Origin: a virus
Lineage: Duplodnaviria; Heunggongvirae; Uroviricota; Caudoviricetes
Reading direction: 5' to 3' (one strand)
Virus record (IMG/VR): IMGVR_UViG_3300009502_000023
Span: 37,731 to 101,730 of that record
Length of the DNA: 64,000 nucleotides
Position numbers and translations under genes: made by a program. How positions within the stretch are numbered: position 1 is the stretch's first letter; every line of letters starts with the position of its first letter. A model generated the notes under the pieces. It was not told the origin of the DNA. It searched no databases and saw nothing but the letters and a program-made list of their open reading frames with translations. Positions 3,314-54,542 of this stretch are shown here, in pieces.

Positions 3314-4537
3314 ATGAAGAAGTTCGATCTTAGAAAGTTGTTGGATGGTATCACTTATGAACCGCAGTTGAATTTGATTGCGACGATGTTTAGTGATGTT
3401 GACAGATATAATCTTCCGGTCACTAAACATCTTTTCAATATCGATAATAAATATTACTTGCTTGCAGAAAATAATTATGCTAAGGTTGTTGTTGGGCCTG
3501 ATTATAATTTTATCTTTCTAAAGCAAGATCGGTTTGGTTTGACTACTGGATTCTTTCAGAGATGGGGTAAGACAAAAGATGATAATCCAGATTTTGCACC
3601 CATTGGTCCAGAAATTCTTGATATTGAAATTAGTGTAAATGGTTGTCCGAATGCTTGTCCGTTCTGTTATAAGAATAACAAGAATGTTCCACCAACCAAT
3701 ATGACATTAGATACGTTTAAATCCATTATTAATAAAATGCCTCGAGTATTAACCCAAGTTGCTTTTGGTATTACTGGAGTCAAAACAAATCCTGATTTCC
3801 TTCCTATGATGAAGTATTGTCGTGAAGTTGGGATTCTTCCAAACTTTACATTGAGCGGAATTGATCTTGATGATACTATGGCAGATGAATTATCACAGGT
3901 TGCTGGTGCTCTTGCTGTGAGTGCTTATGCATCTGATAAGAATGTTTGCTATGATACTGTAAAGAAATTTACTGATCGAGGAATGAGTCAAGTTAATATT
4001 CATTTGATGGTCAGTCAACAGACATTGCCTTTTGTAAAAGAGGTTTTAGCTGATCGATTGACTGATCCACGACTCGAGAACATGCATGCAATTGTATTCC
4101 TTGGTGTTAAACCTAAAGGTCGAGCTAAGAATGAATATACTCCATTGACTCTTCAAGAGTATGGTGATATCGTTCAGTACTCATTGAAAGCAGGATTTAA
4201 TTTTGGATTTGATTCATGTTCAGCTCCAAAATTTGAATCTGTAATTAAAGATACTGCTATTGATATTGAACCAGTTATTAAAGATCAATTGATTGAGTCT
4301 AGTGAATCCTGTGAGAGTTCATTATTCTCAAGTTATATCAATACTGCTGGCGAGTATTGGCATTGTTCTTTTGCTGAGAATGAGGATGGTCAGAATTTTG
4401 TAGATGTTACCAAGGCAAAGGACTTCATTGTCGATGTCTGGTATTCTGATACAGTTAAGAAATTCAGAGAGAATTCAATCAATACAATGGTTGGTGGATG
4501 TCGTCGTTGTACAGTATTCCCATCGATCAACCCATAG
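3314..4537 (+). CDS. radical SAM enzyme, function unknown (possibly linked to nucleotide/7-deazaguanine modification)
   Basis: CPNACPFC = CxxxCxxC 4Fe-4S/AdoMet cluster motif near N-terminus; 407 aa. Confidence 0.6.
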   Translation: MKKFDLRKLLDGITYEPQLNLIATMFSDVDRYNLPVTKHLFNIDNKYYLLAENNYAKVVVGPDYNFIFLKQDRFGLTTGFFQRWGKTKDDNPDFAPIGPEILDIEISVNGCPNACPFCYKNNKNVPPTNMTLDTFKSIINKMPRVLTQVAFGITGVKTNPDFLPMMKYCREVGILPNFTLSGIDLDDTMADELSQVAGALAVSAYASDKNVCYDTVKKFTDRGMSQVNIHLMVSQQTLPFVKEVLADRLTDPRLENMHAIVFLGVKPKGRAKNEYTPLTLQEYGDIVQYSLKAGFNFGFDSCSAPKFESVIKDTAIDIEPVIKDQLIESSESCESSLFSSYINTAGEYWHCSFAENEDGQNFVDVTKAKDFIVDVWYSDTVKKFRENSINTMVGGCRRCTVFPSINP

Positions 4538-9716: not shown

Positions 9717-9730
9717 TCCAGAGGAAAACC

Positions 9731-11548: not shown

Positions 11549-11560
11549 GGTTAAAACAAC

Positions 11561-12313: not shown

Positions 12314-12330
12314 TCACAAGGAAATAGTTA

Positions 12331-24219: not shown

Positions 24220-25164
24220 ATGAATAAGTTGTGTAAGTGTGGTTGTGGTCAAAAAACAGTATTTAATAAAAATTCTAAACAATTTAATATGTTTATCAAA
24301 GGACACAGTAATAAAGGAAAAATTCATTCTGCTGAAACTAGAAATAAAATATCAGTTCGATTATCTGGTAAAGTACCATGGAATAAAGGTGCGCCTGCAT
24401 CAGAAGAATCTAAACTTAAAAATTCTATGGCTCACATCGGGAGAGAACATTCAGAAGAATCAAAAAGAAAAATATCTGAAAATAATGCTAAAACCATGTT
24501 GGGAAAGAACTGGTCTAAAGAAGTAAAACAAAAAATTAGAGAATCTAGATTGGGTAAAAAAGCATCTGCAGAAACTCGATTAAAAATGAGAGAGTGGCAA
24601 CTTGGAAAAATTATTCCAGAAATATCTAAAGAGAAAATAAAAGAAACATGGAATAATAAAAGCAAAACGGAATTAGATATTATAAAACAAAAAAGACAAC
24701 ATACGTTATTATATAATTATGGATTTGATAATTTTTCTAAAACACCACAATTTAAAGAAATGGCAAGAATTGCATCTATTAAAATGGTCGAAAACCAAAT
24801 AGCCAGTGGGGAACCACTATCTCCTAAAATTGGACCACAAGAACGATCATTTCTAAATGAACTCCAACAGTATACCTTGTATAAAATTATTCGAAACGAT
24901 TCTTCTTTTAGATATATTAAAGGTAGATTTCCAGATGGACATATATTAGAATTAAAACTTTTCATTCAATTCGATGAACGATTTCATTTCTCCGATATTG
25001 CTTGTAAAATCTATAAACAAGATGATATAGATTGTACTCTTCAACTTGCTTCTCTCGGTTATATCATTTTTCGAGTTTCAGAGAAACAATGGAAAGAAAA
25101 CAAAGAGAAAACAATTTCTGATTTCAAAAACTTTTTGGTACTGTTAGATCAAGGAAGAAACTAA
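24220..25164 (+). CDS. homing-endonuclease-like protein (Zn-ribbon + NUMOD3 repeats HSAETRNKIS/HSEESKRKIS + PD-(D/E)xK-like C-term) inserted between RNAP subunit genes
   Basis: MNKLCKCGCG N-term; multiple NUMOD3-like repeats; C-term FPDGHILELKLFIQFDE nearly identical to 13482 paralog. Confidence 0.6.
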   Translation: MNKLCKCGCGQKTVFNKNSKQFNMFIKGHSNKGKIHSAETRNKISVRLSGKVPWNKGAPASEESKLKNSMAHIGREHSEESKRKISENNAKTMLGKNWSKEVKQKIRESRLGKKASAETRLKMREWQLGKIIPEISKEKIKETWNNKSKTELDIIKQKRQHTLLYNYGFDNFSKTPQFKEMARIASIKMVENQIASGEPLSPKIGPQERSFLNELQQYTLYKIIRNDSSFRYIKGRFPDGHILELKLFIQFDERFHFSDIACKIYKQDDIDCTLQLASLGYIIFRVSEKQWKENKEKTISDFKNFLVLLDQGRN

Positions 25165-28100: not shown

Positions 28101-28465
28101 GTGATCTATTACTAGATTCTGATGATGATGAGGTTCCGCAGTCACTAAGATTGCTTCAGACAAATCTAAAATCAATTGGTTTGGATTATGCTTTGTTTGA
28201 GGGCGAGAATAAATTCTTACCTGAACTAGATGAGGATGATGGAGATGAAACAGAAAAAGCAATTGAAAATCTTAAACAGGTTTTATCTTCTGAGAATGCT
28301 CGTGAAGACATTCCTGTTATAGAAGGTATTGGTGATGGAACTACAACAATTGAAATTGGAACAGCTGTAGATGAGAAGAAAATCATTTATGATGATACTT
28401 TGGTAGATCAGTTTCCAATGGATGAAGAATTACTGGAAGGAATTTCTAACGATGACAACGAATAA
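25178..28465 (+). CDS. rpoB: RNA polymerase beta-like subunit (compact, single polypeptide)
   Basis: RHGNKGVISKI and GGQRLGEMEIWAVIGHGA beta-subunit signature motifs. Confidence 0.85.
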   Translation: MLRVPAYELQNINVYNFRNHEWNEETIIDNINKMLVCGEDYGLRIKSVVIKNKEEKETSEVKRTKSKILDISLAYTNEEGTEDVDLSYDLPWLLQNHFFISGNWKVCVYQLFDKPVIKRPGIIKIRTNIQSIMLEKKTGTRRKFSYEISLFGKKFAFAKLLIAYLGIEQTKARFTLNENNEYTGPVINEDIDLLIKDITAVLNDVSLDKARLLETYFPRKVDAKIIEDVLLITKIDIFSKKYFNTDNVIEEFLFTIQNDISDDSNYANKRIRFVEQVVYVHLAKDFYNLINSIRKNRKLKFSVNSKSILSNVNVSNIVQFDNSLNPLSELAMLSRTSLSGPGGFEKANVPQSLREIHPSMLYLIDPSDTADREGCGTIQYLIPNTEFNQDGTFFSRGKKVINSVSESFVPFLEHDDATRLQMSSSQQRHAIMLKKFDNALIQSGVEGMYTDQTSFLFKAKRNGKVIYLDDNIICVQYDNKTCEAFHIGYRKLYISTVDFYKVYYNIGDTFSKNDIIAESNYLRNGNITLGKNCLVAIMPWYGYNYEDGIIISQKVAEEDYFTSVHYVDLIIELAPNKVLMNQGTDYTNYKPLPEIGQVLHRGDSYAKIKAIDTDGFDDVMFEPVTEECVTEDCKIVDIKIYANKWNKNFPQYDLFIQELIKTQKSKKTDIIKKLSSHLTKEELDKLTDTLEIHQTEKNNYKIKGEYIDGVRIEITAVYERKVTVGDKLGNRHGNKGVISKIAPIEEMPVLPDGRKADIIINPLGIISRMNIGQVYEAHLGMALMDLKKIVREMHNEKKTQKEIYEYILGFIKIIDMTENGNYYQQMKTIFDSLPIQSFIDSLDNFFVIQPPFESIQWVQLNKAMEYTKTAFEITVFDPISGANIQNPINCGYMYFMKLNHIAQDKMSYRGIGPYSAKTSQPLGGKSRKGGQRLGEMEIWAVIGHGAEKNLNEFISVKSDSIKLRNKYISECMCNSDLLLDSDDDEVPQSLRLLQTNLKSIGLDYALFEGENKFLPELDEDDGDETEKAIENLKQVLSSENAREDIPVIEGIGDGTTTIEIGTAVDEKKIIYDDTLVDQFPMDEELLEGISNDDNE

Positions 28466-29102
28466 AAAACTTGATGACGCAACAAATGCCGAGATAATGT
28501 CTTGTTCCGATAAAGATGTGATTAAACACGAATTGGAACTAAAGTATCCCGGTGCTGTTGATCATGTTAAAGCTATATTGAAATTGATTGGAGATGATCC
28601 AGACCGTGAAGGTTTGCGTGATACTCCTTATAGAGTTGTAAAAAGTTGGCTTGAACTATACAATTATGATTCAAATTTAGATAATATAATGGGTACCTTT
28701 TTTGAAGAGGAAATTGGTGATCAAACAGATGAGATGGTAATATGTAAAAATATATCTTTCTTTTCTACTTGTGAGCATCATATGATACCTTTTAGTGGAT
28801 TAATAAGTATAGGATATTTACCAACCAATAAAGTAATCGGTGTTTCTAAAATGGTAAGATTGGTAGAACATTTTGCAAGAAGACTTCAAATTCAAGAAAA
28901 ATTGGGCAGTCAAATTGCAGATAGTATGATGCAATACTTAAATCCGCAGGGTGTTGGTGTGATCATTACAGCCAAGCATCTATGCATGTCTGCTAGAGGT
29001 GTAAAAAATCAAACTTCATCGATGACCACATCATCTATGAGAGGAAAATTTAAAACACAATCACAGACGAGAACTGAGTTTTTATCATTAATTAAAGATT
29101 AA
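28422..29102 (+). CDS. folE: GTP cyclohydrolase I (probable true start ATG 28452)
   Basis: CEHHMIPF active-site motif and overall FolE-like sequence. Confidence 0.85.
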   Translation: MKNYWKEFLTMTTNKKLDDATNAEIMSCSDKDVIKHELELKYPGAVDHVKAILKLIGDDPDREGLRDTPYRVVKSWLELYNYDSNLDNIMGTFFEEEIGDQTDEMVICKNISFFSTCEHHMIPFSGLISIGYLPTNKVIGVSKMVRLVEHFARRLQIQEKLGSQIADSMMQYLNPQGVGVIITAKHLCMSARGVKNQTSSMTTSSMRGKFKTQSQTRTEFLSLIKD

Positions 29103-30031: not shown

Positions 30032-30202
30032 ATGAAATCAATGATAATAGACGAAGATCTTCATCGAATATTAAAAGTACTTTCAGCAGAAAAAGTTAGA
30101 TCAATTAGAAGTTTAATTTGTGAAGCTTTGATTGATTTATTTCGAAAGTATAATAAAGAAATTTCAAAAAATTTAGAGACTTATCATGAACGAAATACAT
30201 AA
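30032..30202 (+). CDS. small ribbon-helix-helix-like protein (56 aa, not in ORF track)
   Basis: MKSMIIDEDLHRILKVLSAEKVRSIRSLICEALIDLF resembles CopG/RHH fold; paralog at 51333. Confidence 0.45.
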   Translation: MKSMIIDEDLHRILKVLSAEKVRSIRSLICEALIDLFRKYNKEISKNLETYHERNT

Positions 30203-31022
30203 ATTATGCGAGTGCGGTTGTGGAAAAGAAGTAAAATTATCATCTAGTAGATTTTGTAGTGGTCATAATATGATCGGGGTGATAAAATCAAAAGAAACAC
30301 TTCTAAAAATAGCAAACTCAAATAGAGGACAAAAACGTTCTTTAGAAACAAAAGAAAAAATATCTAATTCGCATAAAGGAAAAAAACATTCGTCAGAAAC
30401 AATAGTAAAAATAGCAAACTCAAATAGAGGACAAAAACGTTCTATAGAAACAAAAGAAAAAATATCTAATACTAGTAAAGGAAGAGTAATGCCCCCTATA
30501 ACAGAAGAAACAAGAAAGAGAAGATCTATTTCTGCAACAGGAAGAATGCTCTCATTAGAAACAAAAGAAAAAATATCCAAAGCACATATAGGAAAAAGAT
30601 GTTCACCTGAACATATATTGAATATGAGTATTGCTCAAATGAAACGAGTAGAAAAACAATTATTTAATGGTGGACCAATGTATCCTTGTATGGGGAATAA
30701 TGAAACACAAATTCTTGATTGTTTTCAAACAGAATCAGGAGAGAGGATTCTAAGAAACGATCATGATTTATTTCTAAAATCGGGCAAATTTCCAGATGGT
30801 TATATTAAAAAATATAATCTGTGTATTGATATTCTTGAACCACACCATTTTAAACCAAATGGTGAATTAAGTGACAAAGATCAAAAACGAGAATTAAGAA
30901 TAGCTTTACATCTCGGTTGTATGATATATTATGTTCCAGAACAAGAATTTCTTTTTAATCAAAATAAAGAGATTCATCGATTCAAAGATTTTCTATTAAC
31001 ACTAGATGAGGATCGAAACTAA
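30186..31022 (+). CDS. homing-endonuclease-like protein, variant subfamily (Zn-ribbon + NUMOD3 repeats; C-terminal nuclease motif degenerate)
   Basis: MNEIHKLCECGCGKEV; repeats GQKRSLETKEKISNSHKGKKHSSETIVKIA; C-term FPDGYIKKYNL lacks the ELK of paralogs; sister of 51457 gene. Confidence 0.55.
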   Translation: MNEIHKLCECGCGKEVKLSSSRFCSGHNMIGVIKSKETLLKIANSNRGQKRSLETKEKISNSHKGKKHSSETIVKIANSNRGQKRSIETKEKISNTSKGRVMPPITEETRKRRSISATGRMLSLETKEKISKAHIGKRCSPEHILNMSIAQMKRVEKQLFNGGPMYPCMGNNETQILDCFQTESGERILRNDHDLFLKSGKFPDGYIKKYNLCIDILEPHHFKPNGELSDKDQKRELRIALHLGCMIYYVPEQEFLFNQNKEIHRFKDFLLTLDEDRN

Positions 31023-33148: not shown

Positions 33149-34225
33149 ATGATCGAGTGCAAAGAATGTGGAAAAGAATGTATTTCTGAATTTCATTTAG
33201 CTAAACATTTAGCAAGATATCCAATTAATCATTGTACTCCACAAGAGTATTATGATAAGTATATATTAAAAGATGATAATAATAAAAAGTGTCACCGTCG
33301 AACTTGTTTAAATCAGACATCTTTTAATGGTATTATTCATGGATATAATAAATACTGTTCACCTAGTTGTTGTAATAAAGAAAAAGCAACAGATCCTGAA
33401 TATAGATTGAAAAATAAAAATGCTCAGATTATAGCACAGAATAAACCAGAAGTAAAACAGAGAAGTAGAGATACAGCAAGTGCACAGTGGAAAGATCCCG
33501 ATGTAAGAAGACGAACATTATCTACGTATCAGCAAACTTTAAACAAACCAGGTATAAGAGAAAGATATTCAGAGGCATCAAAAAATAGATGGACTAATTC
33601 TGAATATAGAAATAAATATATACAATCAATGCAGAAACATTGGAAAAGTGAAGATTATAAAAAAGAATTTAAAAAAGCACATAACACAGAAGAAAGTAAA
33701 TTAAATCATTCGGTTGCAAGTAAGAAACTGTGGCAGAATCAACTATTTAGAGATAGGATGATTTCTTTTCTAAATAGTTCAGATCATAAAAAGTATATGA
33801 GTGATTTAGTTACTGTTAAAATGTTAAATGGAGAATGGAATCCTGGACATGGTTGCTATCATTGGGGGTACTGCTATTCTGAAAAGAATAACTCATTCAT
33901 GTTTCATAGATCAGGTACAGAACTCACTGCTTTTCAATTGTTGGATATAAACCCTTTAGTAAAATCATTCGATTATGAACCTTTAAGAATTAGTTATATT
34001 GATAAAGATGGAAATACAAAGTTTTGTATTCCTGATTTGATGATACATTATATAGATAATAGTTTGGAGTTGGTTGAAATAAAACCTGATGTTTTTGTCA
34101 ATGATGAAGACATTCAATTAAAACTTAAAGCTATGTCGGAGTATTGTATCAAAATTGGTATTAAATTTAGAGTGTGGTTAGAAAGTGAAATAGTAAACAG
34201 AAACACGAAACAGGAGATAGTTATC
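33149..34225 (+). CDS. homing-endonuclease-like protein (CKECGKEC Zn-ribbon, basic repeats, PD-(D/E)xK-like PDL...ELVEIKP) lacking its own stop codon
   Basis: ORF reads through in frame into the GC-rich gene starting 34226; AGAATAAATTAAAAGG motif and AAAGGAG RBS upstream. Confidence 0.5.
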
Positions 34226-34468
34226 ATGGCTACATATCAAGAGACGATGGATGCAATCAACACCAAGATCGATGCTTTCAAGGCCGCTGCTGCCACTGGC
34301 GTGGACAACAAGACTGCTGCCCTCCAAGCTCGCAAGTTGTCGATGGAACTTCGCGCTGATCTTCAGGGTTTCCGTAAGGCTAGTGTTGATAATGATCGCG
34401 CTAATACCAAGCACCGCGAGCCCAAGGCTGCAACAGCAACTGTTGCCGAACCTGCCGTTGTTGCCTAA
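34226..34468 (+). CDS. small (80 aa) Ala/Lys-rich GC-rich gene, probably very highly expressed
   Basis: own AGGAG RBS 9 nt upstream of ATG 34226; abrupt shift to GC-rich codon usage relative to upstream endonuclease body. Confidence 0.5.
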   Translation: MATYQETMDAINTKIDAFKAAAATGVDNKTAALQARKLSMELRADLQGFRKASVDNDRANTKHREPKAATATVAEPAVVA

Positions 34469-34960: not shown

Positions 34961-36007
34961 ATGAATAAGTTATGCGAATGTGGTTGTGGTATTGAAGTAA
35001 CCAATGAGAATAATAGGTTTTTAAAGGGACATAGTAGAAAAGGAAATAAAGAATCTTATATAAAACAAGCAAAAAATTACAAAGAAAAATATGGTGTTGA
35101 AAATCCATTTCAATTAGAACTAGTTAAAGATCAGATTAAACAAAAACATTTAGAAAATTTAGGTGTTGAAAATCCCAGTTATTCAAAAGAGATTAAAGAA
35201 AAGAAAACTAAAACAAGTTTAATAAGATATGGCTGTATGCACCCAATGCAATTTGAAAAATTTAAAGAGAAATCAAAGCAAACATGTAAAGAAAAGTTGG
35301 GTGTTGATTTTGCATTTCAATCAGAATCAGTCAAAGAAAAAATCAAACAAACCAGTTTTACAAAATTTGGTACTGATCATCCGATGAAATCAAAAGAAAT
35401 TCAAGATAAGAAAATTAAAACATTGATTGAAAATTTGGGATTTTCGAACCCAATGAAATCAGAAATATGCAAAAATAAAGCAAGAAAAACAAATATAGAA
35501 AAATTTGGCGTTTCGAATCCTAGTCAGTCTAAAATAGTTAAAGAACAGAAAAAACAAACATCAATAAAACATTGGGGTTTTGATAATTGGTCAAGAACAC
35601 CACAGGGAAGAAAACTACATCGAATTAATTCTATTAGAATGAGAGATGACCAATTAGCTAATGATGAACCAGCAATGCCGTGCGTTGGTATTGAAGAACG
35701 ACCATTTTTAAATACTCTTCAGCAATATACAAAATTTAATATCATTCGAAATGATAATTCTTTCAATCATGATGTTGGCAGATATCCAGATGGTCATATT
35801 CCCGAGTTAAAACTTTTCATTCAATTTGATGAAAAATTTCATTTTGAAAATAAAGAAATGACTATCTATAAAGAAGATGATCTAAATTGTACACTTGAAC
35901 TAGCATCTTTGGGATATATTGTTTTCAGAATTTCAGAAAAACAATGGAGAGAAAATAAAGAACACGTAATAGATCAATTTGAACTTATCATAACAGAACA
36001 CGAATGA
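34961..36007 (+). CDS. homing-endonuclease-like protein (Zn-ribbon + repeats + PD-(D/E)xK-like YPDGHIPELK) upstream of ligase
   Basis: MNKLCECGCGIEV; repeated K.Q.HLENLGVENP modules; C-term near-identical to 13482/24220 paralogs. Confidence 0.6.
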   Translation: MNKLCECGCGIEVTNENNRFLKGHSRKGNKESYIKQAKNYKEKYGVENPFQLELVKDQIKQKHLENLGVENPSYSKEIKEKKTKTSLIRYGCMHPMQFEKFKEKSKQTCKEKLGVDFAFQSESVKEKIKQTSFTKFGTDHPMKSKEIQDKKIKTLIENLGFSNPMKSEICKNKARKTNIEKFGVSNPSQSKIVKEQKKQTSIKHWGFDNWSRTPQGRKLHRINSIRMRDDQLANDEPAMPCVGIEERPFLNTLQQYTKFNIIRNDNSFNHDVGRYPDGHIPELKLFIQFDEKFHFENKEMTIYKEDDLNCTLELASLGYIVFRISEKQWRENKEHVIDQFELIITEHE

Positions 36008-40223: not shown

Positions 40224-40276
40224 TCAAAGTTTAAGTTAATAGTAATCAGTTATTGGAAACAAACAAAGAGGTACAA

Positions 40277-41863
40277 ATGTTTACGTTTATCATCGGAATC
40301 ATTTTCATTCTCGCTGGGCTTATTGTCTCGGTTGTTGCTAGTGATCTGGATCGTATTATTCGAACTATTATCCTGGTCCTTACAGTTATCGTTGGTCTTA
40401 CATGCGTTGTCGGTTCTTCGACTTTGTATGTTAAGCCAAGCGAGGGTGGTATCATTGTTAAGAAATTCGGGTCGTCGTTGAAGGAAGGTCATATTATTGC
40501 AGTAAATGGTGAGCGAGGTGTTCAGGCTGAGGTTCTATCTCCTGGATGGAGCTTTGGTTGGTGGCCGTGGCTCTACGACTGCGAGAGTCTTCCTAACATG
40601 AATATCCCAGAAGGTAAAGTTGGTGTGGTTGTGGCAAATGATGGACAGCCACTTCCTGTCAATGAAATCTATGCGGATGCGTGGGAATCTCCAAACAAGA
40701 TGGTTGATGCTATGGAATTCTTAACCAAGGGTGGTAAGAAGGGTCCTCAGCTTACCGTACTTCCTCCTGGACAGTATCGGTTCAATCCAAAGTTGTTTGA
40801 TATTTCTATTGCTCCATGTGTAGATATTACTATTGGTGAAGTTGGTGTCGTTCGAGCAAATGCAGGTAATGTATATAAAAATACAAATACTGTATCTATC
40901 AGCGGTGTTCAACTTGTACCAAAGGGATATAAGGGCATCTGGAATGAAGCATTGCTTCCTGGGAAGTATTACCTTCACCCGAACGCGTATCAAGTAGTTC
41001 ATAAGGCTACCATTAAGAAGATGTATAGCTATACTGGTTCGGAAGGTACTGAGTCTCATTCAAAGGCTGATCGTCCTCACATTGATGCTTCGATTCAAAC
41101 TCGTTCTGTTGATGGATTTAATATTCCTGTTGACGTTCGTGTGTTGACAAGTGTTCGTGCGGAGAATGCACCTTGGGTTGTTGCTAAGTTCGGCAATCCA
41201 GATGCTATGTCTGCAGATGGTTATGAAACGATTGAAACTCTTTCAATTCTTCCTACCATCCGGACAATTCTTCGTAATGCAGCTCAGAATGAGGGTGCAA
41301 TGCAATTTGTCCAAAAGCGTTCAGAAGTTGAGAAAGCTGCATATATGCAGTTTACATCTGAAATGCTAAAGGATAAGATTGATGTCGAGGGTGTTTATCT
41401 TGCTGATATTCGGTTAGATTCAACACCTGAAGGCAAGGCACTCTTGAAGACTCAAACCGATAAGCAAATTGCTGATCAGCAAAAGGCAATGTATCAACAA
41501 CAGGTACTCGCAGAGAATGAAAGAGCCAAGCAGGTTACTGCAGCTAGTGCAGCTGACCAGCAAAAGCGTATTCAGGAATCTCTTGCTGGTATCGAGTTTG
41601 AGAAAAATGGTGCTGAAGCTGCCAGGAATAAAGCTATCGGCGAGGCATCTGCATATAAGGCGAAGGTTGAAGCTCTCGGTGGTGTAGAGAACTTTACCAA
41701 GCTTGAGATTACAAAGATGATGGTTGAAGCTATGAGTAAGACATGGAAGGGTGAAGTACCCAACATTGTCATTCTGGGTGGTGGAAATGGTTCTGGTCTG
41801 AATGATGTCATGACGGGAGTATTTTCACAGCAGATGCAGGCTCAAGCTACGCAGAAGAAGTAG
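40277..41863 (+). CDS. SPFH/band-7 (flotillin/YqiK-like) membrane protein, GC-rich codon usage
   Basis: N-terminal TM helix, SPFH-like core, C-terminal Ala/Glu/Gln-rich coiled-coil flotillin-type repeats; codon usage like 8994/29181 genes. Confidence 0.55.
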   Translation: MFTFIIGIIFILAGLIVSVVASDLDRIIRTIILVLTVIVGLTCVVGSSTLYVKPSEGGIIVKKFGSSLKEGHIIAVNGERGVQAEVLSPGWSFGWWPWLYDCESLPNMNIPEGKVGVVVANDGQPLPVNEIYADAWESPNKMVDAMEFLTKGGKKGPQLTVLPPGQYRFNPKLFDISIAPCVDITIGEVGVVRANAGNVYKNTNTVSISGVQLVPKGYKGIWNEALLPGKYYLHPNAYQVVHKATIKKMYSYTGSEGTESHSKADRPHIDASIQTRSVDGFNIPVDVRVLTSVRAENAPWVVAKFGNPDAMSADGYETIETLSILPTIRTILRNAAQNEGAMQFVQKRSEVEKAAYMQFTSEMLKDKIDVEGVYLADIRLDSTPEGKALLKTQTDKQIADQQKAMYQQQVLAENERAKQVTAASAADQQKRIQESLAGIEFEKNGAEAARNKAIGEASAYKAKVEALGGVENFTKLEITKMMVEAMSKTWKGEVPNIVILGGGNGSGLNDVMTGVFSQQMQAQATQKK

Positions 41864-44858: not shown

Positions 44859-46709
44859 ATGTGTGGTATTGTTGGATTCTATGCACGAGAAAGTGCAATT
44901 GATTATAAACATCTTGATACTCTATTCATGGGTGCTGAGAAACGCGGTCAGGATGGTTTTGGTTATGTCTTGATTAGAAAAGAAAATGGTAAACGAGTAT
45001 TCAAAGTTTCTTTTAAGAGTGCTGAACCATATTCTAAAATTAAAGATGCAGTCAAGAAAGATCTACAATGTTGTGGAATTCAGATTGGTGATTTGCTTAT
45101 CGCAATTGCTCGAGCTGCACCCGAGACAGAAGGTGAAACAAATGCTGATGATTTAGCAGAAACTATGCAACCGATTATTAATCATACCCATGGTTTATAT
45201 ATCGTACATAATGGTGCTGTGAGTAATAAGATCCACAGAGAATTACAGTTGAATTCTTCATTTACCGGATACAATTTTAAAACAAAGATTGATTCTGAAG
45301 CTATTGCTGCTGCTTATGTTTTGAAACAAAGAAATATGAAAGATGCTATGGAGTATCTTTCTGGTGGATTTGCTGCAATAGTGTATGATCAATTTAAGGA
45401 TATGGTTTATGTCATTAATGATTTTAAACCAATCGCCCACGGTTATGTTAAAGGTGTTGGTTTCTTTCTGCATAGTGATAATGATGTTCTGGGTGAAGTA
45501 ATCAAAAGTATTACATCCTGCGAAAGGGATGGAATATGTATGTGGGAAAACTTTTATCATCACTATTTAAGCGGTGGAAGAATTAAAGAGATTGATCTTG
45601 ATTCTGGTTTCATGAGAAACATCAAGTATTCTCCAAGATTCATTACTCCGAAATGGGATAGTAATCGAGGAATTAAAGTTCAACCAGAAAATAAAAGTAT
45701 CAAAGCTGAAATTTGTGCTATAGAAGATGCAAAAATTTACACGTGCATAACGGGTGGTGATGATAGTCTTTGTTTAGTTGCCGCTAGTGGTGGACTTGAT
45801 AGTTCAATGACATTGGCAACTTTAAAAATGGCTGGTTACAATAACATCATAGCTTGTCATTTCAATTATGGTCATCGAGGTAGTAAAGCAGAGTACATGG
45901 CGATTCAAGCTATCTGTATTGAGTTAGGTATTCCTCTACAGTACTTTGATTTATCTGGTAACTATAGAGCTATGGGTACCACATCAATGCTTACTGATAG
46001 TAATGCAAAAATTACTACTGGGACAGCTGATGGGTTAAAGCAACTAGAAGCTTGGGTTAACTTGAGAAATACTCAATTCTTAACTTGGATGGCAACGTAT
46101 GCTGAGTCTTTAGTAATGAAATTTAACTATAAGAAGGTTTACTTCCTTGGGGGTTTCTTAAATCTTTCTGAGTCTGGTCATTACCCAGATAATTCAGAAT
46201 ACTTTTTACAAACCTTCTTAGACCATCTTAAATATGGTTCTTTAATCGGACAAAGGATTATCCCTTTATATTGTCTAAGTAACATTATGAAGCACGAATT
46301 GTTTGTCATGATTAAAGCGTTTGGTTTGGAAAATGTATATCGTCATACAATCAGTTGTGATCGTCCGATGATTGAAACACCATCTTGTGATCATACTAGA
46401 ATAAATCATATTCCAAAGAATTCATTCGATGGAGTAGCTTGTAATTGTATGAAGGATGGAATGCCCGCTTGTGGAAGTGGACTGCTTAGTTACTGGGGTG
46501 CTAAGATGGTTGGTATGGATGATATGAAACTTCGTAATTTCTGTGAAGTAGATGATCCAGACTATCATGCTTATATTCCAGAACACATTAAATCAAAGTT
46601 TAATAAAACACCAGATATTAATACAATTATCAACAGGATTATTTTACCTGAAGATAAACTAAACAACTTAAGGAAACGTTTGAATGAAAACAAGAAACTC
46701 ATTAGTTAG
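44859..46709 (+). CDS. queC: glutamine amidotransferase (class II, Ntn Cys2) fused to QueC-like 7-cyano-7-deazaguanine synthase (Gat-QueC)
   Basis: MCGIVGF N-terminal nucleophile; PP-loop SGGLDS; FNYGHRG (QueC FDYGQRH); C-terminal Cys cluster. Confidence 0.75.
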   Translation: MCGIVGFYARESAIDYKHLDTLFMGAEKRGQDGFGYVLIRKENGKRVFKVSFKSAEPYSKIKDAVKKDLQCCGIQIGDLLIAIARAAPETEGETNADDLAETMQPIINHTHGLYIVHNGAVSNKIHRELQLNSSFTGYNFKTKIDSEAIAAAYVLKQRNMKDAMEYLSGGFAAIVYDQFKDMVYVINDFKPIAHGYVKGVGFFLHSDNDVLGEVIKSITSCERDGICMWENFYHHYLSGGRIKEIDLDSGFMRNIKYSPRFITPKWDSNRGIKVQPENKSIKAEICAIEDAKIYTCITGGDDSLCLVAASGGLDSSMTLATLKMAGYNNIIACHFNYGHRGSKAEYMAIQAICIELGIPLQYFDLSGNYRAMGTTSMLTDSNAKITTGTADGLKQLEAWVNLRNTQFLTWMATYAESLVMKFNYKKVYFLGGFLNLSESGHYPDNSEYFLQTFLDHLKYGSLIGQRIIPLYCLSNIMKHELFVMIKAFGLENVYRHTISCDRPMIETPSCDHTRINHIPKNSFDGVACNCMKDGMPACGSGLLSYWGAKMVGMDDMKLRNFCEVDDPDYHAYIPEHIKSKFNKTPDINTIINRIILPEDKLNNLRKRLNENKKLIS

Positions 46710-51332: not shown

Positions 51333-51464
51333 ATGAAAAGTTTTATGATTAATGATGAAGATTTACATACTCAATTAAAACTTCTTGCTGCTAAATCTAA
51401 GAAAAGTATAATCGAACTATTAGAAGAAGCTATAAAACTTGTGTTGGAGAAATATCATGAATAG
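51333..51464 (+). CDS. small ribbon-helix-helix-like protein (43 aa, not in ORF track)
   Basis: MKSFMINDEDLHTQLKLLAAKSKKSIIELLEEAIKLV; paralog of 30032 ORF. Confidence 0.45.
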   Translation: MKSFMINDEDLHTQLKLLAAKSKKSIIELLEEAIKLVLEKYHE

Positions 51465-52176
51465 ACTTTGTGAATGCGGGTGTGGAAAAGAAGTTACTAA
51501 TGAAATAAATCGATTTATTTTTGGTCATGCTAATAGAGGCAAAACATTTATGATAGATGAAAAAACAAGACAAAAAATGTCAGAATCCCATACTGGTAAC
51601 AGACACTCAGCAGAAACAAAACAAAAGATGATAAATAATCATAGCCGACCACATCTTGGAAAAACACTTTCATCAGATACAATTAGTAAAATGTCTAAAT
51701 CTCATACTGGTAAGTATCATTCAAATGAAACTAGATTAAAAATGTCTATTAATAATGGAATGAAAGGAAAGAAACATACATTCGAAACAAGAATTAAGAT
51801 GAGTCTTGGCACAATAAAATATCTTGAAAATAATCATTATGGACCAAGACGAGGAAGAAATGAAAATCAAATTATTAATCAACTTCAAAAAGAAACCAAA
51901 ATAAATCTATTACAAAATGATTTTTCGATAGCGCATAAAATATCAAAATTTGCAGATGCTTATTCTCCTAAATATAATCTTGTTATAGAAGTATTAGAAC
52001 AAAGACATTTTGTTGGTGGAAAATTAACAGATTATGATAATGAAAGAGAATTAATTATATCTTCTAGATTGGGTTGTATGATATATTATATCATTGAACA
52101 GAAGTTTCTTTCTAACTCAGAAGAAGAAATTCAAAGATTTAAAAACTTTTTAACTGTATTGGATGAGAACAAATAA
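51457..52176 (+). CDS. homing-endonuclease-like protein, variant subfamily (start probably ATG 51457, MNRLCECGCGKEV)
   Basis: Zn-ribbon, NUMOD3 repeats (HSAETKQKMI, HSNETRLKMS); C-term LGCMIYYIIEQKF..IQRFKNFLTVLDE sister to 30186 gene. Confidence 0.55.
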   Translation: MNRLCECGCGKEVTNEINRFIFGHANRGKTFMIDEKTRQKMSESHTGNRHSAETKQKMINNHSRPHLGKTLSSDTISKMSKSHTGKYHSNETRLKMSINNGMKGKKHTFETRIKMSLGTIKYLENNHYGPRRGRNENQIINQLQKETKINLLQNDFSIAHKISKFADAYSPKYNLVIEVLEQRHFVGGKLTDYDNERELIISSRLGCMIYYIIEQKFLSNSEEEIQRFKNFLTVLDENK

Positions 52177-52201: not shown

Positions 52202-53533
52202 ATGGTAAATACCAAAGGCACGAATACTCATTTTGATATTGAATTTCAGGGCGATAATGATAAAATAAGTCAATCTTTAACTAATCATTATTCGACTATC
52301 AGAATTATCAATTCTGTTAAATCTATCTGGCCGGTTTTTCAACTTTACTTTATATGTGATAATCAATTATTTATTGAACAGAATATTTATGGCACAACAG
52401 ATATTACTTGTAAAATTTGGTATACCGGTCATGATGGGGAGAGACGTGGATCACCGGTTGAATATAAACTGATCATACTTGAATCTAAAATTGATCTTCC
52501 CGCTAAAGATCAAAAACCCGGAACGATAACTAGTCAGCAAGAACAACAAAGAATTCTTATAATGGTAACTTGCTTAGCTAAACCGGCGTATGAAGCAATG
52601 ACTCAATTTGTAAATAAGTTATGGGAAGATCCAGATGGATTAACAGGTACACAAAAAACACCTCTAGATATAGTCAAAGAAATATTAACTGATAATAATA
52701 TAGAATCTAGAATTTTTGATAATGGAAAGAATACAGATACTATTCAACAAATGATTATACCACCAATGACAGTTAGATCCGCGGTTGATTATATTAATCA
52801 AAACTATGGAATATTTTCTGGACCAGTTTTTAGATATGCAAATTATTCTGGTCAATTTTTATTATGGGATTTGAGTCAAATGTATTCACACCATAAAGAT
52901 TGTCCTTGGGTTAAGATGCACAAGTCTCCATCTCATTTTGATGATCCAACTACCTTTGATGAAATAAACAAACTAGCATCAAATACAACTGACGAATTTA
53001 TTATTTATGATTCTACAGAATCTATTCATCATTCGAATGCGAATCTTATTCGTTATGGATACGATAATATTTATATTTTTCATCCACATGAAGATATTGC
53101 TGTATTTCAAAAAAGAAATTTAGATGAGATTATTACTGATTATGGAATGTGGCACAAATCAGATCAAATGAAATATCATCCTGATTTAAGAAATCGTAAA
53201 ATGTATTATACCGATATGGTTGGGCATGAAATTGGTTCTGGATATGATGGTGAATATAATGATAATGTACTGACTCAAGACATGGCAACTAATTTTCAGA
53301 ATACTGCTGCAGTAAGAATACAACTATACAGAAATATAAAATTTCATCTGCTCCAAAAGGTTGGAGAAGTTTTATTTCTAGAACCATATTCTGAACATGA
53401 AAAATTTAGAGGAAGTAACTATCGAGGCGGTTATTTAATTTCAGACAGTGAGATTGTTTTTACAAGAGACAATGATAATATTATTTGTACCGCCACGCTG
53501 ACTGCATACCGGACATCACAAAGTTATGACTAA
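52202..53533 (+). CDS. hypothetical protein (possibly virion/structural)
   Basis: ORF 443 aa with AAGGAG RBS. Confidence 0.5.
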   Translation: MVNTKGTNTHFDIEFQGDNDKISQSLTNHYSTIRIINSVKSIWPVFQLYFICDNQLFIEQNIYGTTDITCKIWYTGHDGERRGSPVEYKLIILESKIDLPAKDQKPGTITSQQEQQRILIMVTCLAKPAYEAMTQFVNKLWEDPDGLTGTQKTPLDIVKEILTDNNIESRIFDNGKNTDTIQQMIIPPMTVRSAVDYINQNYGIFSGPVFRYANYSGQFLLWDLSQMYSHHKDCPWVKMHKSPSHFDDPTTFDEINKLASNTTDEFIIYDSTESIHHSNANLIRYGYDNIYIFHPHEDIAVFQKRNLDEIITDYGMWHKSDQMKYHPDLRNRKMYYTDMVGHEIGSGYDGEYNDNVLTQDMATNFQNTAAVRIQLYRNIKFHLLQKVGEVLFLEPYSEHEKFRGSNYRGGYLISDSEIVFTRDNDNIICTATLTAYRTSQSYD

Positions 53534-54542
53534 ATATAGTATGTGTAAATGTGGTTGTGGTAGAGAAGTAACTAATGAGAAGAATAAGTTTTTAAACGGG
53601 CATTGTTGGCGAGGAAAAAAATTATCAAAAGAACACAAAGAACAAATTTCTAAAACACATAATTTAGAAGAAGTTAAAGAAAAAACCAAACAAACATGTT
53701 TGAATAAATTTGGCGAGATTACTAATCTGGTATGTAGAGAAACTAAAGATAAAATTAAACAAACATGTTTAGAAAAATATGGAGTTGAAAGTTCAAATCA
53801 ATCAGAAGAAATTAAAGAAAAAAAGAAACACGCATGTTTAGAAAAATACGGTGTAGAATACCCATTGCAATCTAAAGAAATTCATGATAAATTTAAATAC
53901 ACAATGATAGAAAAATATGGAGTTGAATATACTTTACAATCAGAAGAATTAAAAGAAAAAATTAAACAAACATGTTTAGATGTTTATGGGGCTGAAGATC
54001 CAAACCAGTTAGAAGAAATCAAAGAAAAAATTAAACAAACATGTTTAAAACATTTTGGTGTCGAATGTCATTTACAATCAGAAAAAATAAAAGATCAAAT
54101 TAAACAAACATGTTTAGAAAAATATGGTGTTGATAACTATTCTAAAACATTTGAATTTAGAAAATTTGCAAGAGAACAAATGATTTCTTTTGTTGAATCC
54201 GGATTAAAAGATGGACAAGTTTTTTCACCAACAAAAGGTCGAAATGAAAAAGATTTTATATCAAAACTTCAATATGACGTATCTTATTTTATAGATAATG
54301 ATGCAAGAATTATTGGATATTTTCCAGATGGTTACATAAAAGAACTTAAGTTAGTTATTGAATTTGATGAACCGTGGCATAATAGAACATGGTCAAAGAA
54401 ACATGATATTCAGAAAGATGAAGATTATCAAAAAATAGGATTAAGAATATTTCGAGTTTCTGAACGAAACTGGATTGATAATAAAGAAAAAGTTATATCA
54501 GATTTTAAAATATTCATAAAGGAGATTTCAGAAAATGGCTAA
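53526..54542 (+). CDS. homing-endonuclease-like protein (Zn-ribbon + KQTCLEKYGVE repeats + FPDGYIKELK nuclease motif) abutting terminase gene
   Basis: MTKYSMCKCGCGREV; six K.KQTCL.KYGVE.P.QS repeats; overlaps terL start by 8 nt. Confidence 0.6.
   Translation: MTKYSMCKCGCGREVTNEKNKFLNGHCWRGKKLSKEHKEQISKTHNLEEVKEKTKQTCLNKFGEITNLVCRETKDKIKQTCLEKYGVESSNQSEEIKEKKKHACLEKYGVEYPLQSKEIHDKFKYTMIEKYGVEYTLQSEELKEKIKQTCLDVYGAEDPNQLEEIKEKIKQTCLKHFGVECHLQSEKIKDQIKQTCLEKYGVDNYSKTFEFRKFAREQMISFVESGLKDGQVFSPTKGRNEKDFISKLQYDVSYFIDNDARIIGYFPDGYIKELKLVIEFDEPWHNRTWSKKHDIQKDEDYQKIGLRIFRVSERNWIDNKEKVISDFKIFIKEISENG

What the first reader, a model, noticed from the sequence alone, without database searches (positions are those of the whole stretch)
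44859..46709. Gat-QueC fusion plus FolE (28422-29102) and a radical SAM enzyme (3314-4537): genome DNA probably carries a 7-deazaguanine modification
The window encodes GTP cyclohydrolase I, the first step of the preQ0 pathway. It also encodes a class-II glutamine amidotransferase fused to a QueC-like PP-loop enzyme (SGGLDS, YGHRG). Gat-QueC fusions are the enzymes linked to 2'-deoxy-7-amido-7-deazaguanine in phage DNA. That modification is an anti-restriction mark. QueD, QueE and the DpdA transglycosylase are not recognisable in this window. The 407-aa radical SAM protein could substitute for QueE or belong to a different pathway.
Basis: partly seen in the sequence, partly recalled or inferred. 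Interest (0 to 1): 0.65.

Follow-up and report, generated by a model that had tools for sequence, protein, structure and literature searches.

The report
Divergent phage Gat-QueC; no DpdA found
An uncultured large freshwater phage encodes GTP cyclohydrolase I and an unusual long form of the archaeosine-type enzyme Gat-QueC, so it almost certainly makes a 7-deazaguanine base, but the enzyme that would put that base into DNA (DpdA) was not found in the about 94 kb of its genome that could be read.

Summary
Window 44859-46709 encodes a 616-aa Ntn-glutaminase fused to a QueC domain. Window 28422-29102 encodes FolE, and 3314-4537 encodes a radical SAM/SPASM-like protein.

- Gat-QueC is experimentally tied to dG+ (2'-deoxyarchaeosine) in phages 9g and Vid5, not to dADG.
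- The 407-aa radical SAM is not QueE-like and never accompanies the fusion gene in relatives.
- A different, uncharacterised radical SAM family ("rSAM-350") does accompany the fusion gene. With QueD, it lies just upstream of the readable part of the genome in an 83%-identical relative.
- No DpdA of any known subfamily was found in about 94 kb of this phage. None was found in about 2 Mb of neighbourhoods from its RNA-polymerase-encoding relatives ("group A").
- More distant members of the same long Gat-QueC clade ("group B") sit in compact FolE-QueD-rSAM-Gat-QueC-DpdA clusters. This ties the clade to DNA 7-deazaguanine modification.

The protein is a new variant. It is 25-27% identical to validated Gat-QueC, and has a remodelled zinc site, a linker insert and a C-terminal extension. 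DNA modification, most likely dG+ or a derivative, is plausible but unproven because the genome is incomplete.

The parts
44859..46709 (+). Long-form Gat-QueC (616 aa). Ntn class-II glutaminase (about aa 1-226), family-specific linker insert (about aa 227-300, partly disordered), QueC-like PP-loop ATP-pyrophosphatase (about aa 301-545), family-specific helical C-terminal extension (about aa 546-616).
   Evidence: Pfam and NCBIfam. Alignments A1 and A2. PDB profile search with QueC 3BL5 as best hit, E 1e-12. AF2 model and Foldseek. 120 homologs at 30-70% identity.
44859..45536 (+). Glutamine amidotransferase (Ntn) domain with the Cys2 nucleophile, conserved in at least 90% of family members.
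   Evidence: Foldseek matches to GlmS, AsnB and PurF; the isolated GlmS glutaminase domain 1xff gives TM 0.74.
45759..46493 (+). QueC-like domain. SGGLDS P-loop; Y337, R403 and Y442 equivalent to the essential E. coli QueC residues Y35, R99 and Y131; YPDN instead of YPDC; three conserved Cys (C500, C530, C538) in place of the four-Cys zinc motif.
   Evidence: Alignment A1 read against the QueC signature in PMC13329287. PDB profile alignment to 3BL5.
28422..29102 (+). GTP cyclohydrolase I (FolE). It overlaps the 3' end of the RNA polymerase beta gene by 44 nt. This adjacency is conserved in related phages.
   Evidence: Conserved RNAP-beta-FolE adjacency in L014, L015/L019, L018, L020-L024 and L038.
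3314..4537 (+). Radical SAM/SPASM-like protein named in the finding. Examined and NOT linked to the pathway.

Best explanation
The 616-aa protein belongs to a distinct 'long' clade of Gat-QueC enzymes in the phage 7-deazaguanine pathway.

Shown here:
- It has an intact Ntn glutaminase (Cys2) fused to a QueC-type ATP-pyrophosphatase.
- The QueC domain keeps the P-loop and the three substrate-pocket residues known to be essential in E. coli QueC.
- The same genome encodes FolE.
- A close relative (83% aa identity in the anchoring protein, syntenic) encodes QueD and a pathway-associated radical SAM (rSAM-350), immediately upstream of the part of this genome that could be read.
- More distant members of the same clade sit in compact clusters with FolE, QueD, rSAM-350 and/or QueE, and DpdA.

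Inferred mechanism:
1. FolE converts GTP to H2NTP, and QueD makes CPH4.
2. A radical SAM enzyme (host QueE, or possibly rSAM-350) makes 7-carboxy-7-deazaguanine (CDG).
3. The QueC domain adenylates the carboxylate. Ammonia channelled from the glutaminase domain converts it through the amide and nitrile to the formamidine. This yields preQ0 and then archaeosine base (G+), as shown for 9g Gat-QueC.
4. A guanine transglycosylase then exchanges G in phage DNA, giving dG+ (not dADG) as an anti-restriction mark.

The last step is the weak one, because no DpdA has been seen in this phage or its RNAP-encoding relatives.
For: Domain calls and motifs. QueC is the best solved-structure relative by sequence profile, and the PP-loop half matches it by fold. 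FolE scores 226.8 bits.

Family-level linkage:
- FolE lies within 10 kb of the fusion in 17 of 28 related viral loci.
- DpdA lies within 10 kb in 8 loci, with QueD in 7 of them and QueE in 3.
- rSAM-350 lies within 10 kb in 13 of 28 loci.
- QueD lies within 10 kb of rSAM-350 in 50 of 79 loci.

Close relative L058 carries QueD (PTPS, 80.4 bits) and rSAM-350 (273 bits to the family profile) 2-8 kb upstream of the region syntenic with this phage's contig.

Experimental literature: 9g Gat-QueC plus DpdA gives dG+ in E. coli, even in a queC deletion strain (PMC6884629). Vid5 DNA contains dG+ (PMC8306585).
Against: No DpdA/TGT of any subfamily was found in about 94 kb of the phage's own genome:
- Pfam PF01702 and PF20314.
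- Precomputed Pfam annotation for the upstream loci.
- DpdA1, group B DpdA and DpdA3 HMMs.
- HHalign, maximum probability 1.2% and 5.4% against DpdA3.
- A catalytic-motif scan.

No DpdA-like family was found in about 2 Mb of group A neighbourhoods. Family-level HHalign gave at most 1.2% for all families, while QueD and QueE families scored 100% and 99.9%.

Other points against:
- No canonical QueE was found in this lineage.
- The protein is only 25-27% identical to validated Gat-QueC.
- It lacks the fourth zinc-ligand Cys.
- Its score is below the NCBIfam QueC cutoff (73.5 against 150.3).
- In Xanthomonas jumbo phages a Gat-QueC-like gene sits beside a deacetylase and a glycosyltransferase, not deazaguanine genes.
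Confidence: 0.55

Rival explanations
1. The phage makes a 7-deazaguanine base, but it does not reach DNA through a known DpdA. Possibilities are an unrecognised transglycosylase family, a nucleotide-level route (phosphoribosylation as in toyocamycin biosynthesis, then incorporation by the polymerase), or a further tailored base made with rSAM-350.
For: DpdA is absent from every sampled group A neighbourhood, although FolE, QueD, rSAM-350 and Gat-QueC are all retained. rSAM-350 is embedded in clusters even where canonical QueE is present (L030, L039, L157, L158), which suggests an extra chemical step. The controls show that single-sequence queries would miss a new DpdA subfamily: a single DpdA3 sequence scored 0.3% against DpdA1/B.
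Against: Only +-10 kb around three anchor genes was sampled in genomes of 100-277 kb. Group B members of the same clade use an ordinary DpdA. No phosphoribosyltransferase or nucleoside transferase was seen. PMC10516641 reports that all known 7-deazaguanine phages encode a DpdA.
Confidence: 0.2
2. The base is made for RNA or for the host. The phage boosts preQ0/G+ supply for tRNA modification (queuosine or archaeosine-like) or manipulates host Q metabolism, and its DNA is unmodified.
For: No DpdA was found (calls as above). Archaeal Gat-QueC acts in tRNA G+ formation (PMC6884629).
Against: No TGT was found either. 9g Gat-QueC did not complement tRNA-Q synthesis in E. coli. Bacterial tRNAs do not carry G+. 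Relatives in the same clade couple the enzyme to DpdA.
Confidence: 0.1
3. The QueC-like domain ligates a 7-deazaguanine carboxylate to a protein amine (deazaguanylation, as in Cap9 and QatC) rather than making a free base. It may be connected with the neighbouring E1/E2/JAB-like genes.
For: Foldseek matches Cap9 (9nto, TM 0.64). QueC-family enzymes catalyse protein deazaguanylation (PMC13329287; 10.1101/2025.04.06.647259). In L019, L031 and L040 the fusion gene is contiguous with E2-like, ThiF and JAMM-like genes.
Against: A conserved glutaminase nucleophile argues for ammonia transfer, not protein ligation. There is no Cap10/TGT-like, CD-NTase or QatABD partner. The adjacency may be plain synteny, since the genes are 30 kb apart in the window.
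Confidence: 0.05
4. The protein is not a deazaguanine enzyme at all. It is an AsnB-like or sugar/other amidotransferase that merely shares the Ntn-glutaminase plus PP-loop architecture.
For: Asparagine synthetase B has the same architecture and appears among the fold and profile hits. The Xanthomonas jumbo-phage homolog sits next to a deacetylase and a glycosyltransferase. Hutinet 2019 warns that singleton phage 'QueC' proteins may be unrelated PP-loop enzymes.
Against: The PP-loop half aligns end to end with QueC and not with the AsnB synthetase domain. QueC-specific pocket residues are conserved. FolE, QueD and DpdA co-occur across the clade. The AsnB model scores 46.7 against a cutoff of 267.
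Confidence: 0.05
5. One reading: the DNA carries dADG (2'-deoxy-7-amido-7-deazaguanine).
For: ADG is the intermediate of the QueC reaction. A remodelled zinc site could in principle stall the reaction at the amide.
Against: Every experimentally tested Gat-QueC phage carries dG+. dADG phages use QueC* with DpdA3, or DpdA alone. No DpdA3 was found.
Confidence: 0.05

Closest known systems
Phage Gat-QueC of Enterobacteria phage 9g and Pantoea phage Vid5 (Queuovirinae-type dG+ pathway)
   Same: Ntn glutaminase with Cys2 fused to a QueC PP-loop domain. SGGxDS motif. The YPDN variant of the YPDC motif. Invariant Y, RN and K pocket residues. FolE in the same genome. Distant clade members are clustered with QueD and DpdA.
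   Different: Only 25-27% identity (33-36% over the QueC domain alone). About 140 aa longer, with a conserved linker insert ('EIDLDSG') and an 80-aa helical C-terminal extension. The zinc motif CGPC becomes CGSG, leaving three conserved Cys. The Tyr after the first Cys is lost. The gene is not in an operon with QueE, QueD, FolE and DpdA: FolE is 16 kb away, and no DpdA or QueE was seen. The clade associates with a radical SAM family that is absent from 9g-type clusters.
Canonical QueC (7-cyano-7-deazaguanine synthase; PDB 3BL5; TIGR00364)
   Same: Fold, P-loop, and equivalents of the essential residues Y35, R99 and Y131. It is the best solved-structure relative of the PP-loop domain by sequence profile.
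   Different: Below the equivalog cutoff (73.5 against 150.3 bits). YxQxHxxE is replaced by YGHRGxxxE. YPDC is replaced by YPDN. The four-Cys zinc motif is incomplete. The domain is fused to a glutaminase.
Archaeal Gat-QueC (tRNA archaeosine synthase alternative to ArcS and QueF-L)
   Same: The same two-domain architecture and presumably the same chemistry (amidation of the preQ0 nitrile to a formamidine).
   Different: The archaeal enzyme acts on preQ0 in tRNA after arcTGT. Here the host is a phage with no TGT-family gene seen.
Cap9 / QatC (QueC-family protein deazaguanylases of type IV CBASS and Qat defence)
   Same: QueC fold and P-loop. Cap9 is a structural match (TM 0.64).
   Different: Those enzymes have no glutaminase domain, work with TGT-like Cap10 or with QatABD partners, and are host defence proteins rather than phage proteins.
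Asparagine synthetase B family (Ntn glutaminase plus PP-loop synthetase)
   Same: Overall two-domain logic and an ammonia-channelling mechanism.
   Different: The synthetase domain belongs to a different PP-loop subfamily. AsnB models score far below their cutoffs.

Membership tests
Gat-QueC (glutaminase-QueC fusion, G+ synthase; Hutinet 2019) | N-terminal class-II (Ntn) glutamine amidotransferase with a Cys nucleophile directly after Met1 | tested here: met
   MCGI... start. Cys2 is conserved in at least 90% of 25 aligned sequences. Pfam GATase_6/7. Fold match to GlmS, AsnB and PurF.
Gat-QueC (glutaminase-QueC fusion, G+ synthase; Hutinet 2019) | C-terminal QueC domain with the SGGxDS P-loop | tested here: met
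   SGGLDS at aa 310-315, invariant. PF06508 scores 85.2 bits. The 3BL5 alignment covers residues 2-195 of 219.
Gat-QueC (glutaminase-QueC fusion, G+ synthase; Hutinet 2019) | QueC substrate-pocket residues essential in E. coli (Y35, R99, Y131) | tested here: met
   Y337 and R403 are invariant and Y442 is conserved in at least 90% of sequences in A1/A2. The residues are defined in PMC13329287. The YPDN variant is shared with 9g and Vid5 Gat-QueC.
Gat-QueC (glutaminase-QueC fusion, G+ synthase; Hutinet 2019) | Four-Cys zinc motif C(x)8CxxCxxC | tested here: not met
   Only C500, C530 and C538 are invariant. The final CGPC motif of 9g, Vid5 and R7M reads CGSG in this clade.
Gat-QueC (glutaminase-QueC fusion, G+ synthase; Hutinet 2019) | Gene clustered with folE, queD, queE and dpdA | tested here: inconclusive
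   In the window only FolE is present, 16 kb away. Compact clusters with DpdA exist for clade members at 35% identity or less. QueD is in a close relative.
Gat-QueC (glutaminase-QueC fusion, G+ synthase; Hutinet 2019) | Converts CDG/preQ0 to G+, and gives dG+ in DNA together with DpdA | not testable with these tools
   Needs enzymology or LC-MS/MS. Shown only for 9g and inferred for Vid5.
Canonical QueC (NCBIfam TIGR00364 equivalog) | Score at or above the curated equivalog cutoff | tested here: not met
   73.5 bits against a cutoff of 150.3.
Phage 7-deazaguanine DNA-modification system | DpdA-family guanine transglycosylase (bDpdA, DpdA1-4), the stated signature of all known cases | tested here: inconclusive
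   Not found in about 94 kb of the phage's own genome or about 2 MB of relatives' neighbourhoods. Contig bases 1-10347 and probably at least 60 kb more are unseen. Singleton ORFs could hide a new subfamily, as the control shows.
Phage 7-deazaguanine DNA-modification system | preQ0 pathway genes FolE, QueD and QueE | tested here: inconclusive
   FolE is present. QueD is absent from the visible genome but present in the 83%-identical relative L058 and in 50 of 79 rSAM-350 loci. Canonical QueE was not found in this lineage.
QueE (7-carboxy-7-deazaguanine synthase), for ORF 3314-4537 | Homology to QueE beyond the generic radical-SAM core, and linkage to pathway genes | tested here: not met
   No hit to the QueE HMM at E<10. 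HHalign gives 9.1%. The best NCBIfam hits are SPASM maturases far below their cutoffs. No homolog in the 28 family loci. 7.5 bits to rSAM-350.
Cap9/QatC protein deazaguanylases | Stand-alone QueC-like enzyme with a TGT-like Cap10 plus CD-NTase, or with QatA/B/D partners | tested here: not met
   No such partners appear in the Pfam scans. The glutaminase fusion is absent from those families. There is structural similarity only.
Asparagine synthetase B | Score at or above the TIGR01536 cutoff, and an AsnB-type synthetase domain | tested here: not met
   46.7 bits against a cutoff of 267.1. The PDB AsnB hits are driven by the glutaminase half: human ASNS matches only profile positions 97-178, and E. 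coli AsnB 1ct9 matches 96-288, ending near the P-loop.

The most novel reading that the evidence does not exclude
A large, uncultured clade of phages that encode their own RNA polymerase (contigs of 60-277 kb) keeps FolE, QueD, a long Gat-QueC and a previously undescribed radical SAM/SPASM-like enzyme (rSAM-350), but has no DpdA. These phages would either install a 7-deazaguanine through an unknown enzyme or a nucleotide-level route, or make a new rSAM-tailored archaeosine-type base. That would break the current rule that DpdA marks every phage 7-deazaguanine system.
Probability: 0.2. Interest if true: 0.8.

Novelty: new variant of a known kind. Interest (0 to 1): 0.5.

Why it matters
7-Deazaguanine DNA modifications are a major anti-restriction and anti-CRISPR strategy of phages. 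So far they are known almost only from cultured siphoviruses with compact operons. The current view is that DpdA is their universal signature and that Gat-QueC means dG+.

This window belongs to an abundant uncultured freshwater lineage of large phages that encode their own RNA polymerase. In this lineage the pathway genes are scattered, the Gat-QueC is structurally remodelled, and a new radical SAM family travels with it. No DpdA has been seen yet.

If a DpdA turns up, the finding extends dG+-type modification to a new phage group. If it does not, it points to a new way of getting deazapurines into nucleic acid, or to a new derivative.

It also gives concrete enzymes (long Gat-QueC, rSAM-350) that can be tested in the established E. 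coli dpdA co-expression assay.

Tried and rejected
1. Near-identical DNA search in deposited phages found no match. No cultured close relative exists; RNAP beta is at most 35% identical to any deposited phage.
2. X605, Y336 and p353 as cryptic DpdA: rejected. HHalign gives at most 0.6%. Y336 carries a JAMM motif and X605 an E2-like HPN...C motif instead.
3. A 390-aa family upstream of the fusion in L014, L042 and L020-L024 as DpdA or QueE: rejected. It is also absent from the window.
4. Amidohydro_2 protein upstream (L052:2999-3997) as the CDG decarboxylase DpdL: rejected, because DpdL is a QueD paralog.
5. Window radical SAM as a member of rSAM-350: rejected.
6. IMG/VR scan with the upstream 407-aa protein found nothing. 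A JGI pattern scan found nothing. A DpdA alignment was too diverse for pattern scanning. A narrow DpdA alignment recovered only its own seeds. An rSAM single-protein scan found nothing.
Walking was done through two homology searches instead.
8. The first HHalign positive control was circular, since phiST DpdA3 was in the target alignment. It was redone properly.
9. denV-anchored neighbourhoods in relatives added no pathway genes.
10. Recent literature (2024-2026) has no description of this lineage or of rSAM-350.
Full report
**What is there**

The three ORFs named in the finding exist at exactly the stated coordinates, all on the + strand.

- **Fusion protein (44859-46709, 616 aa).** It starts MCGI..., so the Ntn-glutaminase nucleophile Cys2 is present. 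It matches Pfam GATase_7/GATase_6 over aa 97-207 and QueC (PF06508) over aa 305-512, at 85.2 bits against a gathering score of 22.
- **FolE (28422-29102).** The assignment is unambiguous: 226.8 bits, above all three NCBIfam FolE cutoffs.
- **Radical SAM (3314-4537).** It has a CX3CX2C motif and a weak SPASM-like C-terminus. Its Pfam score (29.0) sits just under the gathering score of 29.5. It belongs to PHROG 7293, of unknown function.

**What the genome is**

The window has no near-identical match among deposited phages. Its content is that of a large virulent phage:
- GC is about 32-35% and almost all genes lie on the + strand.
- It encodes a two-subunit RNA polymerase: beta' at 21312-24161 and beta at 25178-28465.
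- It also encodes an NAD-dependent ligase, Mre11/SbcC-like proteins, an SF1 helicase, a large terminase and many homing endonucleases.

The same genes occur on metagenomic contigs from stratified freshwater lakes. One is ENA ERZ27245625 k141_508313 (91.7 kb), whose position 37,731 corresponds to window base 1. A protein from that contig is also recorded on a 101,730-bp contig. Since 101,730 - 37,730 = 64,000, the window is very probably the last 64 kb of that contig.

**Is it really a Gat-QueC, and what do Gat-QueC enzymes make?**

- The closest deposited relatives are the Gat-QueC proteins of Vid5, 9g, JenP2, R7M and Microbacterium phages, at only 25-27% identity (33-36% over the QueC domain alone).
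- A profile of five annotated phage Gat-QueC proteins scores the window protein at 162 bits.
- A profile of the window protein's own family finds QueC (PDB 3BL5) as its best solved relative. The alignment covers essentially the whole QueC domain (E 1e-12). The asparagine synthetase hits are driven by the glutaminase half.
- An AlphaFold2 model built on 20 family members is confident (pLDDT 84.5, pTM 0.82). Foldseek matches GlmS, AsnB and PurF for the N-terminal half, and QueC (3BL5, 2PG3) and Cap9 for the PP-loop half.

I compared the alignment with the refined QueC catalytic signature published in 2026 (PMC13329287).

| QueC feature | In the window protein and its clade |
|---|---|
| P-loop SGGxDS | Kept (SGGLDS) |
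| Essential residues Y35, R99, Y131 | Kept as Y337, R403, Y442 |
| YPDC motif | YPDN, exactly as in 9g and Vid5 Gat-QueC |
| Zinc motif C(x)8CxxCxxC | Remodelled: only C500, C530 and C538 are conserved, and the final CGPC reads CGSG |

The clade also has a conserved linker insert and a helical C-terminal extension of about 80 aa that 9g-type proteins lack.

On chemistry, the literature is clear:
- Vid5, which has Gat-QueC, carries dG+ at 7.55% of its G positions (PMC8306585).
- dADG belongs to QueC*/DpdA3 phages such as CP220, or to phages with DpdA only (PMC10516641).

**The family and its neighbourhoods**

The protein has at least 120 homologs of about 550-620 aa in metagenomes, at 30-70% identity. 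Several are interrupted by inteins, and several lie on contigs of 100-236 kb. I fetched 28 related viral loci with 10-kb flanks and screened them with profiles built from reference operons of 9g, Vid5, R7M and Nicole72. The loci split in two.

| | Group B | Group A (includes the window) |
|---|---|---|
| Identity to the window protein | At most 35% | At least 38% for most; two RNAP-linked loci (L023, L036) are at 33-35% |
| Loci | L027-L030, L033-L035, L039, L043 | 15 IMG/VR loci: L017-L024, L026, L031, L032, L036, L038, L040, L042, plus the JGI locus L014 |
| Layout | Compact clusters with FolE, QueD, and QueE and/or another radical SAM; in 8 of the 9 loci a DpdA lies about 1-3 kb from the fusion gene | RNA-polymerase-encoding lineage; FolE is conserved directly downstream of RNAP beta; no DpdA within +-10 kb of the fusion gene |

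The clade as a whole therefore belongs to the DNA 7-deazaguanine pathway, but the window's own sub-lineage lacks the compact operon.

**The radical SAM question**

The window's 407-aa radical SAM is not linked to the pathway:
- It does not hit a QueE profile.
- HHalign against QueE gives 9% probability, which is core similarity only.
- It has no match in the PDB by sequence.
- It has no homolog in any of the 28 family loci.

A different radical SAM/SPASM-like family of about 350 aa ("rSAM-350", alignment A8) is the one that travels with the fusion:
- It lies within 10 kb of the long Gat-QueC in 13 of 28 loci.
- It is absent from every characterised cluster (9g, Vid5, R7M, Nicole72, phiST, MA9V-3, BSP7).
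- It scores far below every curated NCBIfam cutoff. The weak similarities are to SPASM maturases, MoaA and viperin.
- In 79 further viral loci that carry it, QueD lies within 10 kb in 50, canonical QueE in 4 and DpdA in 2.
- In L027-L029 and L033 it occupies the QueE position in clusters that otherwise look complete. In L030, L039, L035, L025, L157 and L158 it coexists with QueE.

It is therefore either a QueE analogue or an extra tailoring enzyme. The window's radical SAM is not a member of this family (7.5 bits).

**Looking for DpdA, QueD and QueE in this phage**

- **Within the window.** Pfam scans of 53 ORFs of at least 100 aa found no TGT (PF01702), DUF6610 (the DpdA4 model), PTPS or QueE.
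- **Profile searches.** Profiles for DpdA1 plus group B DpdA, and a dedicated DpdA3 profile, found nothing in any ORF of at least 40 aa in the window and its flanks. The DpdA3 profile used phiST CGPG_00065, MA9V-3 and BSP7, each of which sits next to FolE, QueD and QueE.
- **HHalign.** Every window ORF of at least 100 aa scored at most 1.2% against DpdA and at most 5.4% against DpdA3.
- **Control.** A three-sequence DpdA3 alignment finds DpdA1/B at 77% probability, but a single DpdA3 sequence scores only 0.3%. Singleton ORFs could therefore hide a novel subfamily.
- **Walking upstream.** Two homology searches and contig look-ups added contig positions 10,348-37,730. These hold small early-type genes, denV, an AAA_33 kinase, an Amidohydro_2 protein, PAAR and RlaP, but no pathway genes.
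- **A close relative.** A JGI scan anchored on the most upstream sizeable protein recovered L058, from Ga0209777_10000245 (94.7 kb; 83% aa identity; syntenic). Directly upstream of the syntenic part it encodes, in order: rSAM-350 (273 bits to the family profile), GyrB-like and intein-containing GyrA-like topoisomerase subunits, QueD (PTPS, 80.4 bits) and a helicase. By inference the unseen first 10.3 kb of this phage's contig encodes the same block. The orientation of L058 within its contig implies at least 60 kb more genome upstream.
- **Family-level test.** I clustered all ORFs from about 130 loci into families and ran each family alignment against the profiles. This recognised QueD (100%), QueE (99.9%) and the rSAM-350 core (96%). 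None of the 49 families tested (those found in at least 8 loci) resembled DpdA or DpdA3 (at most 1.2%).
- **Neighbouring families.** Pfam on the most conserved unannotated neighbours showed topoisomerase, helicase, ThiF, a weak Prok-E2_D hit and WYL. No other base-exchange or salvage enzyme was found.
- **Motif scan.** A scan for the DpdA1/B catalytic signature found nothing in the phage's own genome, while 7 of 9 positive controls carry it.

**Synthesis**

Shown:
- The fusion is a structurally intact, divergent Gat-QueC.
- FolE is encoded in the same genome.
- The lineage carries QueD and a pathway-associated radical SAM.
- Distant clade members use an ordinary DpdA.

Inferred:
- The phage makes preQ0/G+-type base from GTP, with CDG coming from host QueE or from rSAM-350.

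Not shown:
- That the base enters DNA.

My estimates are:

| Reading | Probability |
|---|---|
| 7-deazaguanine (most likely dG+) DNA modification through a DpdA not yet seen | about 0.55 |
| DpdA-independent or novel route, or a novel derivative | about 0.20 |
| RNA- or host-directed role | about 0.10 |
| Protein deazaguanylation | about 0.05 |
| Non-deazaguanine amidotransferase | about 0.05 |
| dADG specifically | about 0.05 |

**Novelty and interest**

The finding is not a new kind of system, but it is a clear new variant:
- a long, remodelled Gat-QueC clade;
- in an uncultured lineage of large phages that encode their own RNA polymerase;
- with dispersed pathway genes;
- with a new co-travelling radical SAM family;
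- and with no DpdA seen so far.

That combination would interest specialists in deazapurine modification, and it can be tested directly in the existing E. coli co-expression assay. The main weakness is that the genome is incomplete. Interest: 0.5.

Noticed in passing
window 8994-13341 and 19325-19867; L019 (=L015) 6465-12294; L031 860-4885; L096 11801-18641: Apparent phage-encoded ubiquitin-like conjugation module. X605 (9731-11548) has an invariant E2-like 'HPNV...C' motif, and the 861-aa protein in the corresponding position of relatives (no direct similarity to X605 detected) gives a weak Prok-E2_D hit. ThiF1 (11561-12313) is E1-like (PDB profile hits to Uba1, MccB and MoeB, E 1e-14). Y336 (12331-13341) carries a complete JAMM motif (E95, H125-x-H127, S135-x2-D138). 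A second ThiF-like gene lies at 19325-19867. In three relatives these genes are contiguous with the Gat-QueC gene. No ubiquitin-like substrate was identified.
   Followed up: partly
L058:53-1111; L017:2271-3350; L027:7320-8396; L080-L158 (alignment A8): An uncharacterised radical SAM/SPASM-like family (about 350 aa; invariant CX3CX2C plus C293, C332, C335). It co-localises with long Gat-QueC in 13 of 28 loci and with QueD in 50 of 79 loci, and is absent from all experimentally studied 7-deazaguanine clusters. It may be a QueE analogue or a new tailoring enzyme.
   Followed up: partly
window 13482-14552, 24220-25164, 30186-31022, 34961-36007, 51439-52176, 53526-54542; L031 4885-7881; L032 9659-12994; L058 2975-5272: A heavy load of selfish elements. 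There are three DUF7487+DUF559 and three NUMOD3 homing endonucleases in the window, one of them between RNAP beta' and beta. Gat-QueC homologs (998-aa forms) and a topoisomerase subunit carry inteins. In L032 a homing endonuclease splits the Gat-QueC gene.
   Followed up: partly
window 21312-24161, 25178-28465, 28422-29102: Two-subunit RNA polymerase (beta' and beta, at most 35% identical to any deposited phage). FolE overlaps the end of the beta gene by 44 nt. The RNAP-beta-FolE adjacency is conserved across the lineage, which hints at co-expression of transcription and base-modification functions.
   Followed up: partly
L010 (Xanthomonas phage PhiXhv-15) 8695-11929: In 228-kb Xanthomonas and Erwinia jumbo phages a Gat-QueC-like gene (26% identical) sits next to an LmbE-like deacetylase and a glycosyltransferase, not deazaguanine genes. 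This subgroup may have a different, sugar-related function.
   Followed up: no
L052 1471-1932 and 2999-3997 (upstream of the window); L159 5154-6668: An AAA_33/KTI12-type kinase and an Amidohydro_2 (PF04909) protein form a pair conserved in a 66%-related phage. In this phage a homing endonuclease lies between them. It is not DpdL, and its function is unknown.
   Followed up: partly
window 13391-13464: A single tRNA-Gly (anticodon TCC) lies between the JAMM-like gene and a homing endonuclease.
   Followed up: no
window 1-64000: Uniformly positive GC skew (0.11-0.19 in every 8-kb bin), with nearly all genes on the + strand and GC of 31-35%.
   Followed up: no
window 33149-34468, 40253-41863; L052 7541-7807: Other unusual cargo: a TnsA-like endonuclease domain fused to an Hc1 histone-like tail, a 536-aa SPFH/Band-7 protein, and a PAAR-motif protein upstream of the window.
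   Followed up: no
window 332-1024, 2589-3284, 14516-15544: Three calcineurin-like metallophosphoesterases. One is the Mre11-like partner of the SbcC-like ATPase at 15544-18132. In most relatives QueD sits between, or next to, these two repair genes, but not here.
   Followed up: partly
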